Assembly: GCA_016931155.1 (NCBI GenBank) | Contig: JAFGFJ010000006.1 | Span: 385,419 to 449,418 of the forward strand | Length of the DNA: 64,000 bases | Direction of reading: 5' to 3' | From: Candidatus Dojkabacteria bacterium | GTDB taxonomy: Bacteria; Patescibacteriota; Dojkabacteria; B142; JAFGFJ01 | In this document: positions 30,095 through 35,287 of the stretch, in pieces | Position numbering within the stretch: position 1 is the stretch's first letter | How the letters are laid out: each line of letters opens with the position of its first letter | Translations under genes and position numbers: made by a program | The notes under the pieces: model-generated | What the model was told of the DNA's origin: nothing | Seen by the model: only the letters and a program-made list of their open reading frames with translations | Databases searched by the model: none

Positions 30095-31009
30095 TTAATC
30101 AAAATTTAAGTTGTATTCTATAAGTTTACTGACGGCTGTCGCTCTAAATTTTTCGATCTCCCTCTTTGTGGGAATTGCTTCATAATTACCTAGTTTTGTA
30201 CACTGTAATGCTGAGACCAAATTTGCATATTCAACGCTTTCCTGTATGCTCCACTTTTGCAATACTCCGTAGCCAAAAGCACCTCTGAAGATGTCTCCTG
30301 CTCCGAGTGTATCAATAGCAGGTACTTGTAGTGCAGGTACGTGAGTAGTTTTCTTTCCATCAAAAATGAGGCTACCTTTCTCTCCAAGAGTAATGACCAC
30401 TGTTTTTTTTGTAATTCTATAGACATCATTGAGGTTTGCGTCAAAGCCTTCGTGGATCCGAAATTTAGACAGGCTCTCATAAGGTATTATTGGAAAATCA
30501 GTTTTAGCCAGCATCTTGAAAATTTTTGTAGATACTTCTGTTGATGGGTCGATTATTATTTTTGTATCTGATCGTTTTTTGTTTAATATTTCTTCAAAGG
30601 CTTTTGGTTCGTGTCTGTCGAAGAGGATAATGTCAGAGGATTTTATTATTCTCTCGGAGATGCCCGATATCGGTAAGTGTCTTACTCCATCTCTTATTAT
30701 GGTTCGTGACCCATTTTTGGAGTTAATTAGAACCGTGTTTACTTTTGTTGAGCGAGCCGTTCTTGGAATAAATTGAATGTTTTCTCTTTTCAGCTTTGAT
30801 TTAATTTTTTCATATGCATCATCCTCTCCCACGGTCGATATGAGCGTGCATTTAACTCCCAGTCGTGAGAGAAGTATAAGCGCAGATGGCACAGGCCCTC
30901 CAACGGAGTATTCTACCTTCTGCGGTTGAACTTTTTCCCCTTCTTCAGGAAAGCGATTTAGTAGATTGACCTTATCAAGTACTATCTCGCCAATTCCCAA
31001 TACGTGCAT
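30095..31009 (-). CDS. PfkB-family carbohydrate/nucleoside kinase (ribokinase-like)
   Basis: GGPVPSA N-terminal motif and DTLGAGDIFRGAF anion-hole motif. Confidence 0.75.
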   Translation of the reverse strand: MHVLGIGEIVLDKVNLLNRFPEEGEKVQPQKVEYSVGGPVPSALILLSRLGVKCTLISTVGEDDAYEKIKSKLKRENIQFIPRTARSTKVNTVLINSKNGSRTIIRDGVRHLPISGISERIIKSSDIILFDRHEPKAFEEILNKKRSDTKIIIDPSTEVSTKIFKMLAKTDFPIIPYESLSKFRIHEGFDANLNDVYRITKKTVVITLGEKGSLIFDGKKTTHVPALQVPAIDTLGAGDIFRGAFGYGVLQKWSIQESVEYANLVSALQCTKLGNYEAIPTKREIEKFRATAVSKLIEYNLNFD

Positions 31010-31017
31010 TTTATGGT

Positions 31018-31049
31018 CTAAAAAATAAAAAAACCGCTTTTATGCGGTT
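31018..31049 (-). terminator. rho-independent terminator (minus strand) immediately upstream of the PfkB start
   Basis: On the minus strand: aaccgc-ataaaa-gcggtt followed by tttttatttttt. Confidence 0.55.
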
Positions 31050-31400
31050 ATGTTTTGTATGTTAATTAAACGACCAACAACTAACCGCGTTTAGCGATTC
31101 CAAAAAAAGTAAAAGCTAAAGTATTTTCTGGTTAGTTGTTTTCTCATATCTCAAGGATTGTATGTGCCTGGAGAAAATATGTCAATAAAAATACTGAAAA
31201 AAATCCTTACATGAAAAATACCGATCCAGGCTAATTCTGGTAGTTTCTCATAAATTCTGATAAGTCCAAATAAATCCTGATAATATTGGTAATAATCTAA
31301 GCCGTTGGACTTCCACATCTGTATGGTCTCGAACTTCATTCGAAAACTTTACGAATTTGAAGGCAGTCCATGAATAATTCAGGAATTTACGAAAAACAGC

Positions 31401-31430
31401 TTGATACCCAGGTCTGTATTGTTATATAAT
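31401..31430 (+). promoter_or_regulatory. sigma70-like promoter (TTGATA, 18 bp spacer, TATAAT)
   Basis: Exact -10 consensus and 5/6 match to the -35 consensus with 18 bp spacing. It sits ~160 nt upstream of the ParB-like gene at 31591. Confidence 0.5.
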
Positions 31431-31544
31431 GGCACACTTATGGAATCAAGTAACTTTACACATATTATTGTCAGCCTTGTACTTCTCCTCACGAATGGGG
31501 GGTTTTCGCTGGCGTAAGGGTAAAAGTTACTAACATAAATATGA

Positions 31545-31573
31545 AGCCTGCGAAAGCAGGTTGTTTTTATTTA
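31545..31573 (+). terminator. intrinsic terminator/attenuator hairpin in the 5' leader
   Basis: agcctgc-gaaa-gcaggtt followed by gtttttattt; it ends ~18 nt before the GTG start at 31591. Confidence 0.5.
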
Positions 31574-31590
31574 TTAAGAAGAATTAAGTT

Positions 31591-32130
31591 GTGGGAACAG
31601 TTAACTTAGAAAGTCTTTTTAGAGAGGGAGATAATCAGGAGGGGGCGTTCCTTACAATTGAAAATTTCAAGGGCTTGGATTCTCATGATATGGCCTATAT
31701 AAAGGAGGCTCTTCTGGAGGGGAATGTGTTTTTGACTTATGTTGAAAGAAGCGACTACAACAACAAGCTACTGGGAACAACTCAAGATTTTATTAAAGAG
31801 CAGGGTATCAAGCGCATTACAAGTGGAACCGGTGATGATAAAGAACCCTTGCCTTTATGTTACCTTCAAGTAAGAGAAGATAAACATGGCAGGCAAAAAA
31901 ATGAACTTATATTCTGTGAGGGTAATAACAGAGTGGCACTAGCTATTATTCATGGTACCTCGATTGAGGTAGGGATTATTGGAGTTATTGACAGGAAAGA
32001 AAGCACATTTACCTATTGGAAAGGGAATGAAATATCTGTGCCGACACCTATTCTAGGATTCAATGCAGTTTTTAGTAAAGCTCGTTCTGCTGTGACCAGT
32101 TGCTCGAGTGCTGGACAGAGTTTGGTATAG
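31591..32130 (+). CDS. ParB/Srx-fold (ParB-like nuclease domain) protein
   Basis: Motif HGRQKNELIFCEGNNRVALAII resembles the ParB/sulfiredoxin GxxR/DGxHR core. It is paralogous to the convergent neighbour. Confidence 0.5.
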   Translation: MGTVNLESLFREGDNQEGAFLTIENFKGLDSHDMAYIKEALLEGNVFLTYVERSDYNNKLLGTTQDFIKEQGIKRITSGTGDDKEPLPLCYLQVREDKHGRQKNELIFCEGNNRVALAIIHGTSIEVGIIGVIDRKESTFTYWKGNEISVPTPILGFNAVFSKARSAVTSCSSAGQSLV

Positions 32131-32136
32131 TGTTTA

Positions 32137-32628
32137 TTACTCGAGCAGTTGAAGATTGCCGAGGTAAAGTGTAACCTCGTTTCGCATTTTTTGAAATCCG
32201 TGCATGTTTTGTATGTGTTCATCTATGCACTCTCCATATACCCGAGCCACTACTTCTTGTCTATTCAGACATGCTATGGCAATCCTGTGGTTACCACATT
32301 CAACGCATACTATTCTTTTCTGTCTACCTTTACTATTTGTCACGTCTCTCAGAGAAACTACTATTGGTTCACATTGCTTATCTCCATCTCCTTCTATTGC
32401 TGCTAAAAGCTTTTCGTCTTCTACATGGTTCTGTCGTGTTAGAAGGATACCTTTATTTAAAAGTTTTTGCGGATTAAAAAGAATATATTTGCCGGTCAAA
32501 TCTTTTATGGAGATTTGTTCATAATTTGTAATAAACCCACTATCCACATCGTGGGTTCCAATTAATCTGACTGTACCGTCTTGTCCTGAATAATTGTGTA
32601 AATCATTTCCCCGAGTGGTTTCCGTCAT
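32137..32628 (-). CDS. ParB/Srx-fold protein, paralog of 31591-32130
   Basis: Shares KGRQKRIVCVECGNHRIAIACL, plus PxxxLxVRD and DGDK motifs, with the neighbour. The two are arranged tail-to-tail with 6 nt between their stops. Confidence 0.5.
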   Translation of the reverse strand: MTETTRGNDLHNYSGQDGTVRLIGTHDVDSGFITNYEQISIKDLTGKYILFNPQKLLNKGILLTRQNHVEDEKLLAAIEGDGDKQCEPIVVSLRDVTNSKGRQKRIVCVECGNHRIAIACLNRQEVVARVYGECIDEHIQNMHGFQKMRNEVTLYLGNLQLLE

Positions 32629-32853
32629 GAATATATTATACTATCTTCTCACAAGCTTGTGTTTTTGAAAAATTATTAATTCCTTGTTTTCTGGCAATGT
32701 CTTTTCCAATTCTTAAGGTGATATTGAAACAGTCGAAAACTGTAATAAATTTTGGCACTTGACCACTATGACTGCCAATTTGTATAATCGTATGAAGATT
32801 AATTTCTTCATATTCAAATTAATCTTCAAAAAATACAAAAGGAGGTAATTGTT

Positions 32854-33267
32854 ATGGCAATCATAAAATGGGAACCCTTCAGAGAAATGGAGAGATTTTT
32901 TGATGATGATTTCGGAATGTTTAAAATGCCTGCCTTGGGCTGGGATATGGCGGTAGATGTTTTTGAAAAAGATGGAAAAGTTGTTGCTGAAATGAGTCTT
33001 CCCGGAGTTGATCCGGACAATGTAAATATCGAGGTGGAGGATGGACATCTAAGAATTAGTGGTTCCAGGGAAGAGGAGAAGGAAACGAAGGATAAGAATT
33101 ATTACAGCAAAGAAATTAAGAGGGGATCATTCGAAAGAATAGTAAGGCTTCCCTCAGCTGTTCAGGCAGATAAAGCGGAAGCGGAGTATGAGAAGGGAGT
33201 TTTGCGTGTTTCTCTTCCAAAGAAGGAGAAAGAGGAGACAGGGAAGATAAAAGTAAGGGTAAAATAA
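32854..33267 (+). CDS. Hsp20/alpha-crystallin small heat-shock protein
   Basis: MAIIKWEPFREM N-terminus and an alpha-crystallin domain (GVLRVSLPK). Confidence 0.85.
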   Translation: MAIIKWEPFREMERFFDDDFGMFKMPALGWDMAVDVFEKDGKVVAEMSLPGVDPDNVNIEVEDGHLRISGSREEEKETKDKNYYSKEIKRGSFERIVRLPSAVQADKAEAEYEKGVLRVSLPKKEKEETGKIKVRVK

Positions 33268-33964: not shown

Positions 33965-35287
33965 TTAGTTTTTCTCAACTTTGTGAGCTTGTGTTTCGTG
34001 TGCATTGAAAAACTCTATTGCCCTGGCAAGCTCGGGGTAATTTTTGGAGTATTCTTCAATTGAAATATCTTGCTTCCATGCAGTACATGCCTGAACAACG
34101 GCTGCTGCTCCTGCTTTTGTTCCATCCGGGTGGCTATGCACTCCTGCTCCCATTGTGATAATGAAATCAGTATGGCCTATAGCCTCAATAAACGGACGGA
34201 GTAGAACGGGATTCATACCCCCTGAAATAATCGGATTTGTTTTTTTTAGATCTCCCCAATCCTGTTCAAAAAAGTGCCCCTTTGTGATTTTTCCAAGAGC
34301 CGAATTGGCTGAGGTCACATCTTCACCTTGTGAACCGGACATTTTTCCGATCCCCGAGGTGCCTGTGTGAATACCTGATGCGCCAGCAAGGCGGGCTAAT
34401 TTTGTAAGCACCAGAACTGAAAAGCCAATGGGGTTTTCTTCACGAGTGAATGCTCCATGTCCTGCTCTATGGAAGTGAAGATAGACATCCGGATAACGTC
34501 TTCTGATTGTTTGAACGGCTGTCCAGCCTGCAGTAATACCGTCTACGAGAAAAGCGTAACTATCCGGTTTCATAATCTTTTGTACATAGTCCGCCCGTTC
34601 AATCATTGTGTCAAAATCTGCGGCAGAAACATTGAAGGAATGAACCTTTGTTTGTCCGGTTTCAGTTTCTGCCTTATCCATGGCTTCCTTTACAAGGTCA
34701 ACTGTTTCAGTGAATGGTGCAAAATCCTGATCTGCCTGAGGTTCATCGTTTTTGACAAAGTCTCCACCGCCAGCCCAGAAGTTGTAGCAGACGTCTGCAT
34801 ATTCGGCGGATTTAAGGCCGATTTTGGGCTTGACGATAGTGCCCAAAATCGGCCTATCATAAGCGTTCAAATACTTCCTCATCTCATCGATCGTATAACT
34901 CGATCCGTCATAGTTTTCTAACATGTCAGGCGGGAACGAAATATCAAGAAGTTTTAGTCCTGCAAGTGAGCTCATTCCAAAGACGTTCCCGGCCAGGAAT
35001 GTAACAATATTTTGGACATTACCTGCGCGATCAAACATCCTCCATGGATATGCTATATATACAAGCCCTTTATCTTCTTCCACTTTATAGACAACTCCTC
35101 CCATTGAATCAGAAAATTCTGTCGCAGTATTTACCTCAATATTTGAGCCGTTTGAAGATTCTGCTGCAATTTCTGAGGCCGCATCAAGAAGGTCTGTTTT
35201 TCCATAGGGTATTACTTTGAAAACTGCAAGCAGGTGGGTTCCTTTTAGTACTTCTTCATTCCCGAGTTGTATGTATTTTTTCTGCAT
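33965..35287 (-). CDS. rbcL: ribulose-1,5-bisphosphate carboxylase large subunit, form III-like
   Basis: GGDFVKNDEPQ active-site motif, KPKIGLK (with the lysine that is carbamylated) and the GGMNP C-terminal loop. At 440 aa with no small-subunit gene nearby it is archaeal/CPR form III-like. Confidence 0.85.
   Translation of the reverse strand: MQKKYIQLGNEEVLKGTHLLAVFKVIPYGKTDLLDAASEIAAESSNGSNIEVNTATEFSDSMGGVVYKVEEDKGLVYIAYPWRMFDRAGNVQNIVTFLAGNVFGMSSLAGLKLLDISFPPDMLENYDGSSYTIDEMRKYLNAYDRPILGTIVKPKIGLKSAEYADVCYNFWAGGGDFVKNDEPQADQDFAPFTETVDLVKEAMDKAETETGQTKVHSFNVSAADFDTMIERADYVQKIMKPDSYAFLVDGITAGWTAVQTIRRRYPDVYLHFHRAGHGAFTREENPIGFSVLVLTKLARLAGASGIHTGTSGIGKMSGSQGEDVTSANSALGKITKGHFFEQDWGDLKKTNPIISGGMNPVLLRPFIEAIGHTDFIITMGAGVHSHPDGTKAGAAAVVQACTAWKQDISIEEYSKNYPELARAIEFFNAHETQAHKVEKN

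What the first reader, a model, noticed from the sequence alone, without database searches (positions are those of the whole stretch)
31401..32628. Convergent pair of paralogous ParB/Srx-like proteins preceded by a promoter, a ~130 nt leader and a terminator hairpin
ORFs 31591-32130 (+) and 32137-32628 (-) share the motif block ...P(L/I)..L.(V/L)R(E/D)...(H/K)GRQK..(L/I).(F/C)(C/V)EG(N/G)(N/H)R(V/I)A(L/I)A..., which resembles the ParB/sulfiredoxin-fold GxxR nuclease/NTPase core. They are arranged tail-to-tail, 6 nt apart. ParB-like nuclease domain proteins outside partition operons are frequent in defence and mobile-element contexts.

Upstream of the plus-strand copy there is a near-consensus promoter (TTGATA-18-TATAAT, 31401-31430), then a ~130 nt untranslated leader ending in an intrinsic terminator (31545-31573) only 18 nt before the GTG start. 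That layout is typical of a riboswitch/attenuator or a short sRNA.
Basis: partly seen in the sequence, partly recalled or inferred. Interest (0 to 1): 0.55.

Follow-up and report, generated by a model that had tools for sequence, protein, structure and literature searches.

The report
Leader-peptide attenuator before ParB/Srx-fold paralogues
Two diverged copies of a rare small protein with a ParB/sulfiredoxin-type fold, known only from tiny-genome candidate-phyla bacteria, sit tail to tail, and the "untranslated leader" before one of them is most likely a translated mini-gene that switches a transcription terminator on or off according to how well ribosomes read it.

Summary

The promoter and terminator are real, but the leader is not untranslated. 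An ATG lies 9 nt after the -10 box and opens a 25-codon ORF (MESSNFTHIIVSLVLLLTNGGFSLA). The same unit (strong promoter, 20-26-codon ORF, enclosing hairpin, terminator, then a family gene) recurs in 9 other lineages. In 7 of 9 units tested, a segment at the ORF's end pairs with the terminator's 5' arm better than shuffles do. This fits a leader-peptide transcription attenuator, probably leaderless and possibly sensing Ile/Leu codons, rather than a riboswitch or sRNA. The window's own antiterminator is weak. Nothing points to defence or a mobile element. The biochemical function is unknown; NTP binding is inferred.

The parts
31401..31430 (+). Sigma-70-type promoter TTGATA-18-TATAAT (-35 at 31401-31406, -10 at 31425-31430)
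   Evidence: 11 of 12 consensus matches. Promoters of 10-12/12 stand at the equivalent place in 9 other lineages.
31440..31517 (+). Leader ORF of 25 codons plus TAA, encoding MESSNFTHIIVSLVLLLTNGGFSLA. The ATG lies 9 nt after the -10 box, so the mRNA is probably leaderless.
   Evidence: An ORF of 18-27 codons starting within 14 nt of the -10 box arises in 2.7% of dinucleotide shuffles of this leader. It is present in 8 of the 9 units tested that way, and by direct reading in a tenth unit, L020.
31449..31531 (+). Long imperfect hairpin enclosing most of the leader ORF (the anti-antiterminator, '1:2'). It includes the inner CUCCUC/GGGGGG hairpin at 31485-31502.
   Evidence: MFE and centroid structures, z = -3.96. 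An equivalent enclosing hairpin appears in the other units.
31504..31513 (+). Candidate antiterminator strand UUUCGCUGGC, at the 3' end of the leader ORF
   Evidence: It pairs with 31546-31555 when a ribosome is modelled at codons 9-10 and the 3' terminator arm is not yet made. The duplex is not better than shuffles for this unit (p=0.51).
31545..31573 (+). Intrinsic terminator: stem AGCCUGC / GAAA loop / GCAGGUU, then a T-run. The 5' arm plus loop (31546-31555) is the partner of the antiterminator strand.
31591..32130 (+). ORF1, 179 aa, long subtype of the family. ParB/Srx-like fold. Its GxxR motif reads GNNR (31921-31932), so the near-invariant His of the family is Asn here.
32137..32628 (-). 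ORF2, 163 aa, short subtype of the family. ParB/Srx-like fold with the canonical GNHR motif (32284-32295).
32635..32640 (-). TATAAT 6 nt upstream of the ORF2 ATG. This is a possible -10 box of a leaderless ORF2 mRNA. There is no leader ORF or terminator before ORF2.
   Evidence: Read from the sequence. The window-wide scan for promoter-sORF-terminator units found none here. Inference only.

Best explanation
The locus holds two diverged paralogues of a rare, Patescibacteria-restricted family of small single-domain proteins. They have a ParB/sulfiredoxin (ParB-CTPase) fold and keep the GxxR phosphate-binding motif (family consensus DGNHR). They most likely bind a nucleotide and act as a pair. 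This is inferred from recurrent paralogue pairs and from one natural tandem fusion.

ORF1 is controlled by a ribosome-mediated (leader-peptide) transcription attenuator. Transcription starts at or just before the ATG at 31440. The proposed logic has three states:
1. The 25-codon leader ORF is read through to its stop. The ribosome then covers the antiterminator strand, the terminator at 31545-31573 forms, and ORF1 stays off.
2. The leader is not translated. The long hairpin 31449-31531 locks up the same strand, and the terminator forms again.
3. A ribosome stalls in the Ile/Leu-rich middle of the leader ORF (H8-I9-I10 in the window). The antiterminator strand is then free to pair with the terminator's 5' arm, and RNA polymerase reads into ORF1.

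Shown: the ORFs, the family, the fold-level similarity, the promoter, leader ORF and terminator, and the recurrence of this architecture next to family genes.

Inferred: translation of the leader ORF, the switching mechanism, the signal (Ile/Leu-tRNA supply or general translation stress), nucleotide binding, and pairing of the two proteins.
For: Family:
- The exhaustive HMMER search finds only 24 representatives at E<=1e-3.
- Shared motifs are LNKxRL(Y/F)TTQ.W(I/V)D, DGNHR and GFN.
- Named sources are Dojkabacteria, Pacebacteria and 'Patescibacteria group'.

Fold:
- The AF2 models are confident.
- Foldseek's top hits are sulfiredoxin.
- hhalign aligns GNHR on Srx GCHR.

Pairs:
- Tandem paralogues occur in L016 and L017/L018.
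- P0014 is a fused double domain with two GDGNHR motifs.

Attenuator:
- The same promoter, sORF, hairpin, A-rich linker and terminator unit lies upstream of family genes in L001, L003, L004, L005, L012, L016, L018 and L020, and in atypical form in L002.
- Such an sORF arises in 1.4-6% of shuffles per unit. A binomial test of 9 of 10 units at a 6% chance gives p about 1e-10.
- The antiterminator duplex beats shuffles in 7 of 9 units. The Fisher-combined p is 1e-9.
- In ribosome-masked folding, P(terminator) is above 0.9 with no ribosome or with a ribosome at the stop codon. It falls below 0.3 for stalls in a mid-ORF window in 7 of 9 units, the window included.
- Ile/Leu make up 45% of residues inside those stall windows against 22% outside (p=0.003).
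- There is no room for another promoter between the terminator and ORF1, so ORF1 needs read-through.
- A textbook attenuator of identical design lies 250 nt away on the other strand: ATG 9 nt after the -10 box, peptide MRKQLTRKYFSFYFFWNR, upstream of DAHP-synthase-like and prephenate dehydratase genes. This suggests the organism uses the mechanism.
- The L016 unit scores 37.2 bits on Rfam Trp_leader, just under the gathering score of 41.
Against: - The window's own antiterminator is weak. It is not better than shuffles (p=0.51), and the terminator stays in the MFE when the T-run is included.
- L016b and L001 show no clear switch in the masking model.
- L010, L011 and the first L016 paralogue have no such unit.
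- The leader peptides do not carry a clean run of one amino acid, so the signal is uncertain.
- The regulated gene is not an amino-acid biosynthesis or transport gene, which is unusual for a codon-sensing attenuator.
- There are no expression data of any kind.
- Ile/Leu enrichment could be a by-product of the pyrimidine-rich 5' arm of the hairpin (CUN codons).
Confidence: 0.55

Rival explanations
1. Same leader-peptide attenuator, but the signal is not Ile/Leu supply. It would sense general translation stress or a ribosome-targeting compound through nascent-peptide-dependent stalling, as in erm/yxjB-type or toiL-type leaders. The ParB/Srx-like protein would then be a stress or resistance factor.
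For: The leader peptides share a loose sequence pattern (aromatic residue at position 4-6, then H/T/N-(I/L)-(I/L/N)) rather than a run of a single codon. The regulated gene is not an amino-acid gene. Published precedents exist for stalling leaders that control non-biosynthetic genes (PMC6851288, PMC12121999).
Against: The shared peptide pattern may reflect RNA pairing: the UUU/UAU codons pair with the A-rich linker. Ile/Leu are enriched in the predicted stall windows. No resistance-like domain is present.
Confidence: 0.25
2. The promoter-to-terminator unit is an independent gene for a small hydrophobic protein or a small RNA that merely neighbours the family gene. ORF1 would be expressed by constitutive leak-through or from elsewhere.
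For: It is a complete transcription unit with a strong promoter and terminator. In L012 and L004 the unit lies 220-420 nt from the family gene, with other small ORFs between. Attenuator-derived RNAs can act in trans (PMC6614838).
Against: The terminator abuts the family gene's start codon in L016, L018, L020 and L002, and lies within 48 nt of it in the window, L001, L003 and L005. The antiterminator pairing and the position of the stop codon relative to it are conserved. No other promoter lies before ORF1. The linkage persists although the proteins share only about 20-35% identity, and it persists in the window, where the aaRS/RecJ synteny is absent.
Confidence: 0.12
3. The leader is a riboswitch or another ligand- or protein-binding RNA, and the small ORF is incidental.
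For: The leader is structured (z = -3.96 in the window, -4.52 in L005) and ends in a terminator directly before the gene.
Against: No Rfam family reaches its gathering score. Across five units (the window and four others) almost no nucleotides are conserved apart from the A-rich linker and the T-run: mean column identity is 56% and the invariant columns are mostly A or T. The ORF, its start position and its length are conserved far beyond chance.
Confidence: 0.06
4. The pair is a ParB-like nuclease module of a defence system or mobile element.
Against: There is no PADLOC or PHROG match. The neighbours are metabolic and chaperone genes. In four other lineages the gene sits at one conserved chromosomal position, between a class IIb aminoacyl-tRNA synthetase gene and recJ. 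No integrase, transposase or partner defence genes are present.
Confidence: 0.04

Closest known systems
Sulfiredoxin (Srx), a single-domain ParB/Srx-fold ATP-dependent enzyme
   Different: Asn (or another residue) replaces the catalytic Cys of FGGCHR, so the protein cannot be a sulfiredoxin. The family also has its own motifs, LNKxRLxTTQ and GFN. No peroxiredoxin link was seen.
SerK / SbnI free-serine kinases and Atu1540 (ParB/Srx-fold small-molecule enzymes or unknowns)
   Different: These proteins are about 200-250 aa with extra C-terminal parts. No sequence-level similarity was detected. The substrate residues were not compared.
Canonical ParB (CTP-dependent DNA clamp)
   Same: The fold is shared, as is the Box II / P-motif GxxR. 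Dimerisation of two N-domains is a possible parallel to the paralogue pairs.
   Different: There is no HTH domain, no C-terminal dimerisation domain and no parA or parS. The Pfam ParBc model does not match.
Leaderless leader-peptide attenuators of Actinobacteria (for example the C. glutamicum ilvBNC / IlvL three-hairpin attenuator)
   Same: A promoter-proximal leader ORF is translated from a leaderless mRNA, an anti-antiterminator hairpin covers the ORF, and an antiterminator and a terminator exclude each other (PMC11857589, PMC3890552).
   Different: The phylum differs (CPR). The regulated gene is a ParB/Srx-like protein of unknown function, not a biosynthetic operon. The regulatory codons are a loose Ile/Leu-rich stretch rather than a clean run.
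E. coli trp / phe / leu leaders (Rfam Trp_leader, Phe_leader)
   Same: The architecture is the same. The L016 unit scores 37.2 bits on Trp_leader and the window unit 25 bits on Phe_leader.
   Different: All scores are below the gathering thresholds. The mRNA has no Shine-Dalgarno-led leader ORF, and the cargo is different.

Membership tests
ParB/Srx (ParB-CTPase) fold superfamily | Three-dimensional fold shared with ParB N-domain, sulfiredoxin, SerK and SbnI | tested here: met
ParB/Srx (ParB-CTPase) fold superfamily | Box II / P-motif GxxR at the start of the helix after the central strand | tested here: met
   G and R are invariant in 23 family sequences. The family consensus is DGNHR; ORF2 has GNHR and ORF1 has GNNR. 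The motif aligns to Srx GCHR by hhalign.
ParB/Srx (ParB-CTPase) fold superfamily | Match to the Pfam ParBc (PF02195) or related clan models | tested here: not met
   ORF1 and ORF2 have no ParB-related hit at E<=10. Among 23 members scanned at E<=1 there is no ParBc match, only chance-level hits.
ParB/Srx (ParB-CTPase) fold superfamily | Nucleotide triphosphate binding that depends on the GxxR arginine | not testable with these tools
   This needs DRaCALA or ITC with wild type and the R-to-A mutant, as done in PMC12704722.
Sulfiredoxin | Catalytic Cys in the FGGCHR motif | tested here: not met
   The aligned position is Asn in ORF1, ORF2 and most members.
Canonical ParB partition protein | HTH DNA-binding domain, C-terminal dimerisation domain and an adjacent parA | tested here: not met
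   The proteins are 116-193 aa with a single domain. No parA is among the neighbours.
Ribosome-mediated (leader-peptide) transcription attenuator | Short ORF directly after the promoter, ending upstream of an intrinsic terminator | tested here: met
   In the window the ORF is 31440-31517 and the terminator 31545-31573. The same holds in 8 other units. The chance of such an ORF is 1.4-6% per unit.
Ribosome-mediated (leader-peptide) transcription attenuator | Mutually exclusive antiterminator that is freed by a stalled ribosome and masked by a ribosome at the stop codon | tested here: inconclusive
   For the family this is met: 7 of 9 units beat shuffles, combined p 1e-9. For the window's unit a 9-bp candidate exists and P(terminator) falls to 0.13-0.30. 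However, the duplex is not better than shuffles (p=0.51) and is not the MFE once the T-run is included.
Ribosome-mediated (leader-peptide) transcription attenuator | Run of codons for the amino acid that the downstream genes make or import | tested here: not met
   The stretch is Ile/Leu-rich (IIVSLVLLL), and Ile/Leu are enriched in the stall windows. The downstream gene, however, has no recognisable amino-acid function.
Ribosome-mediated (leader-peptide) transcription attenuator | The leader ORF is actually translated and read-through responds to stalling | not testable with these tools
   This needs ribosome profiling, toeprinting or reporter assays.
Any Rfam family (riboswitch, leader, sRNA) | Score at or above the gathering threshold | tested here: not met
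   The window unit's best hit is Phe_leader at 25 bits, against a gathering score of 55. The whole window gives only tRNAs. In the other loci the best hit is Trp_leader at 37.2 bits, against 41.
Known anti-phage defence systems (PADLOC) | Match to a defence protein model | tested here: not met
   No match at E<=10.

The most novel reading that the evidence does not exclude
A CPR-specific regulatory module in which ribosome stalling on a conserved, leaderless 20-26-codon leader ORF (at Ile/Leu codons or under translation stress) switches on a previously undescribed family of minimal ParB/Srx-fold, probably NTP-dependent proteins that work as hetero-pairs. This would be the first described attenuation-controlled response in Patescibacteria, and it would give the ParB-CTPase fold a new physiological role tied to translation or amino-acid supply.
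Probability: 0.3. Interest if true: 0.7.

Novelty: new variant of a known kind. Interest (0 to 1): 0.55.

Why it matters
Candidate-phyla (Patescibacteria) bacteria are mostly uncultured, and almost nothing is known about how they regulate genes. I found no paper in the searched library that combines these phyla with transcription attenuation or leader peptides.

This locus, together with the textbook aromatic leader next to it, gives sequence-level evidence that classical ribosome-coupled attenuation operates there, with leaderless leader ORFs. It also defines a very rare, lineage-restricted family of minimal ParB/Srx-fold proteins that Pfam-based surveys of this fold cannot see (PMC12704722 searched with PF02195). 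Their tight coupling to a translation-sensing switch gives a concrete, testable lead to their function.

Tried and rejected
- Pfam, NCBIfam, PADLOC and PHROG scans of both proteins and of 23 family members gave only chance-level hits.
- PDB sequence searches with the 2-sequence and the 23-sequence profiles gave nothing relevant.
- Word-indexed homologue searches returned only the queries themselves, and 4 proteins with the profile.
I therefore did not scan genome or metagenome contigs.
- The afdb50 fold library was unavailable.
- Near-identical contigs (L005-L009, L012-L015, L017-L019) have identical leaders, so they gave no substitution or covariation information.
- The MAFFT alignment of five leaders was too diverged for a meaningful covariation test or covariance model. 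I did not build one.
- A window-wide scan for further promoter-sORF-terminator units found only the two divergent ones at 31010-31590, plus one false positive inside a gene.
- I looked for a second family copy next to every homologue. It is present in L016 and L017/18 and absent in the other loci, many of which are short contigs.
- I considered SRP RNA, 6S RNA and T-box identities for the roughly 135-nt transcript and rejected them. Rfam gives no signal, and the conserved feature is an ORF.
Full report
**1. What is there**

The window comes from a 559,650-bp contig of a Candidatus Dojkabacteria (candidate division WS6, CPR) bacterium. The two ORFs are NCBI hypothetical proteins JW796_03560 and JW796_03565.

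- ORF1 (31591-32130, +, GTG start, 179 aa) and ORF2 (32137-32628, -, 163 aa) are convergent, with 6 nt between their stop codons.
- The promoter TTGATA-18-TATAAT (31401-31430) matches 11 of 12 positions. The terminator (stem 31545-31562 plus T-run) is real.
- The 144-nt RNA from 31437 folds better than all 200 shuffles (z = -3.96).

**2. The proteins**

No curated library recognises either protein:
- Pfam, NCBIfam, PADLOC and PHROGs give nothing.
- PDB sequence searches are also negative.
- The word-indexed search of 5.8 billion clusters returned only the queries.

An exhaustive HMMER search of 1.84 billion cluster representatives with the two-sequence profile found just 24 proteins at E<=1e-3. 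These are 90-193 aa, plus one of 332 aa. They share three motifs: LN(K/R)xRL(Y/F)TTQxW(I/V)DxxK, (D/E)GNHR(I/T)(A/G)(I/L)A and GFN.

Two subtypes are visible.
- The long subtype has an N-terminal extension. ORF1, P0005, P0010, P0012, P0016, P0019, P0020 and P0022 belong to it.
- The short subtype includes ORF2 and most of the others.

The only names that sources attach to members are Dojkabacteria, Pacebacteria and 'Patescibacteria group bacterium'.

**3. Fold**

With the 23-sequence alignments, AlphaFold2 gave confident models: ORF1 pLDDT 87.1 with pTM 0.83, and ORF2 pLDDT 83.9.

- For ORF2 the first seven places are ParB/Srx-fold proteins.
- Foldseek ranks sulfiredoxin first (prob 0.85, E 0.03).
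- hhalign of the family profile against human sulfiredoxin aligns the family's PP-strand, its K(L)..A helix and GNHR onto Srx PPIDVLWI, KVQSLVDTI and GCHR. The P value is 0.0023, but the hhalign probability is only 12.7%.

GNHR is therefore the Box II / P-motif GxxR of the ParB-CTPase fold, as described in PMC12704722. Each score is weak, but they agree. I take the fold assignment as likely (about 0.8).

Family-level membership is a different matter. The proteins are not sulfiredoxins, because Asn stands at the catalytic Cys position. They are not canonical ParB either: there is no HTH, no C-terminal domain and no parA. ORF1 carries GNNR, so it lacks the near-invariant His, while ORF2 is canonical.

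**4. Pairs and context**

Paralogue pairs recur.
- In L016 a long-type gene is followed in tandem by a second one (E 4e-28).
- In L017/L018 the partner is divergent and its motif has decayed to GHHA (E 1e-8).
- P0014 is a natural fusion of two domains, each with GDGNHR.

The proteins probably act as dimers or hetero-pairs. This is an inference. It would parallel NTP-dependent engagement of ParB N-domains, which is established knowledge of that family.

Other loci carry a single copy, but many of them are short contigs.

The context is not defence and not mobile.
- In the window the neighbours are a PfkB kinase, a class II aldolase, DAHP-synthase-like and prephenate dehydratase genes, Hsp20, an AHSA1-like protein and a RuBisCO-like large subunit.
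- In four deeply diverged lineages (P0004, P0017, P0019, P0020) the gene lies between a divergent class IIb aminoacyl-tRNA synthetase gene and a convergent recJ. P0025 (L020) shows the recJ side; its upstream neighbour was not identified.

**5. The leader is a translated attenuator, not an untranslated RNA**

In the window an ATG at 31440 lies exactly 9 nt after the -10 box. It opens a 25-codon ORF, MESSNFTHIIVSLVLLLTNGGFSLA, ending at TAA 31515-31517.

The decisive evidence is comparative. Immediately upstream of family genes in nine other lineages I found a near-consensus promoter (10-12 of 12) followed 88-153 nt later by a strong terminator. This is usually within 5-48 nt of the family gene's start codon.

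In eight of these nine units, an ATG 7-15 nt after the -10 box opens an ORF of 20-26 codons:
- L005: MFNQFIHLNLKLNLVLIRIK
- L012: MNQWYCLSIQGIFVPHTGGGLVE
- L018: MHTNYQPTNLIVATILFGDMVGRL
- L016: MQVPNFKKSSLLIHCHFNKERWGL
- L001: MKIKLFKNNLINMFILRLYAWNRII
- L003: MLHKFQHIILSGLLIRRCACVGRLK
- L004: MNNNVALSAVLLDLIIDNREEGLL
- L020: MKNTYHQTLIIARIKVLFGLMAVISA

Such an ORF appears in only 1.4-6% of dinucleotide shuffles of each leader. A binomial test of 9 of 10 units at a 6% chance gives p about 1e-10.

Nucleotide sequence is barely conserved apart from an A-rich linker and the T-run. No Rfam family reaches threshold, although the L016 unit scores 37.2 bits on Trp_leader, whose gathering score is 41. 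This pattern, with the ORF and architecture conserved but the sequence not, argues against a riboswitch.

**6. Switching logic**

In every unit a long hairpin encloses the ORF. A G-rich segment at nt 54-93 from the ATG, at or just after the end of the ORF, can pair with the 5' arm of the terminator. In L012 this is a perfect GGAGGTTTGG/CCAAACCTCC.

Against 1000 dinucleotide shuffles, the duplex p values are:

| Unit | p |
|---|---|
| L005 | 0.023 |
| L012 | <0.001 |
| L016b | 0.004 |
| L001 | 0.023 |
| L003 | 0.001 |
| L004 | 0.001 |
| L020 | 0.024 |
| L018 | 0.2 |
| window | 0.51 |

The Fisher-combined p is 1e-9.

I also folded each leader with a 30-nt ribosome footprint masked at successive codons.
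- The terminator has probability above 0.9 with no ribosome or with the ribosome at the stop codon.
- It falls below 0.3 for stalls in a defined mid-ORF stretch:
  - window: H8-I10
  - L005: H7-L14
  - L012: Y5-V14
  - L018: L10
  - L003: K4-L13
  - L004: L7-L12
  - L020: T8-V16
- L016b and L001 do not switch in this model.
- Ile and Leu make up 21 of 47 residues inside these stretches against 26 of 120 outside (Fisher p=0.003).

For the window itself, the candidate antiterminator is UUUCGCUGGC (31504-31513) pairing with GCCUGCGAAA (31546-31555). That is 9 bp around one mismatch. It is the MFE in a co-transcriptional snapshot with a ribosome at codons 9-10. It is weak, however. The terminator stays in the MFE once the T-run is included, and the duplex is no better than shuffles. 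The case for the window's unit therefore rests mainly on shared architecture with the other lineages.

There is no space for another promoter between the terminator and the GTG of ORF1, so ORF1 must be expressed by read-through.

**7. An internal positive control**

The same 580-nt intergenic region carries a second unit of identical design on the other strand.
- The promoter is TTGACA-17-TACAAT (31185-31157), and an ATG follows exactly 9 nt after the -10 box.
- The leader peptide is MRKQLTRKYFSFYFFWNR, with seven aromatic residues among eight.
- An 11-bp hairpin AACAACUAACC/GGUUAGUUGUU overlaps an antiterminator GCGGUU, which matches the terminator arm (p=0.008).
- The terminator (31049-31032) lies 12 nt before an operon that includes a DAHP-synthase-like gene and prephenate dehydratase.

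This is a textbook aromatic-amino-acid attenuator. It makes it credible that this organism uses ribosome-mediated attenuation with leaderless leader ORFs. The closest described analogues are the leaderless leader-peptide attenuators of Corynebacterium (PMC11857589, PMC3890552). I found no paper linking attenuation or leader peptides with CPR/Patescibacteria in the searched library.

**8. Most likely mechanism and confidence**

I commit to the following reading.
- ORF1 and ORF2 are ParB/Srx-fold, probably nucleotide-binding proteins that work as a pair.
- ORF1 is switched on when ribosomes stall in the Ile/Leu-rich middle of the leader ORF, and it is terminated otherwise.

My confidence in each step:

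| Step | Confidence |
|---|---|
| Fold assignment | about 0.8 |
| Leader-peptide attenuation as the regulatory principle | about 0.7 |
| Ile/Leu supply as the signal | about 0.35 |
| Translation stress or drug-induced stalling as the signal (main alternative) | about 0.25 |
| Nucleotide binding and pairing | plausible but untested |

ORF2 has no such leader. A TATAAT 6 nt before its ATG suggests a leaderless mRNA. No terminator separates the convergent genes, so read-through from ORF1 would be antisense to ORF2. This is a speculative point that I did not test.

**9. Novelty and score**

The parts belong to known kinds: the ParB/Srx fold and leader-peptide attenuation. The new elements are these:
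- The protein family is undescribed and invisible to Pfam-based surveys.
- The attenuator class is undescribed, and it sits in a phylum where this regulation has not been reported.
- It controls a non-biosynthetic gene.

I rate it a new variant of a known kind, with interest 0.55.

Noticed in passing
window 31010-31185, minus strand: A textbook aromatic-amino-acid attenuator. Its promoter is TTGACA-17-TACAAT (31185-31157), and an ATG at 31147 lies 9 nt after the -10 box. The leader peptide is MRKQLTRKYFSFYFFWNR. An 11-bp hairpin AACAACUAACC/GGUUAGUUGUU overlaps the antiterminator GCGGUU. The terminator (31049-31032) lies 12 nt before the ATG (31009) of a PfkB / class II aldolase / DAHP-synthase-like / prephenate dehydratase operon. 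Its Rfam Phe_leader score is only 21 bits.
   Followed up: partly
window 32629-32640, minus strand: A TATAAT lies 6 nt upstream of the ORF2 ATG. Together with the two leader ORFs that start 9 nt after their -10 boxes, this suggests leaderless mRNAs are common in this organism.
   Followed up: no
window 32759-32853: The hsp20 gene (32854-33267) has a near-consensus promoter, TTGACC-18-TATAAT (32759-32788). A perfect 13-nt inverted repeat, TGAAGATTAATTT-N10-AAATTAATCTTCA (32793-32828), lies between the -10 box and the Shine-Dalgarno sequence. It could be a heat-shock operator or an RNA thermometer.
   Followed up: no
L005, L012-L015, L016, L017-L019, L020: In several deeply diverged Patescibacteria lineages the family gene keeps one chromosomal position. 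It lies downstream of a divergent class IIb aminoacyl-tRNA synthetase gene (tRNA-synt_2, preceded by a Peptidase_S11 gene) and convergent with recJ. The window does not share this synteny.
   Followed up: partly
P0014 (332 aa, ENA contig of 1150 bp): A natural fusion of two family domains in one polypeptide, each with GDGNHR. In L017/L018 the tandem partner has a decayed motif (YGHHA, Arg lost), and in the window ORF1 has GNNR (His lost). In these two of the three two-gene pairs one copy deviates; both L016 copies keep His-Arg.
   Followed up: partly
window 33965-35287 (-) and 30095-31009 (-): A RuBisCO-like large subunit (Pfam RuBisCO_large, 330 bits) lies about 3 kb from a PfkB kinase. Among that kinase's sub-threshold NCBIfam matches are ribose-1-phosphate kinases (best match ribokinase). 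This recalls the nucleoside-salvage RuBisCO pathway of archaea and CPR.
   Followed up: no
L012 5585-5969 and L004 607-792: In two lineages the attenuator unit is separated from the family gene by additional small ORFs (50 and 51 aa in L012, 61 aa in L004). They have no recognisable family and may be co-regulated cargo.
   Followed up: no
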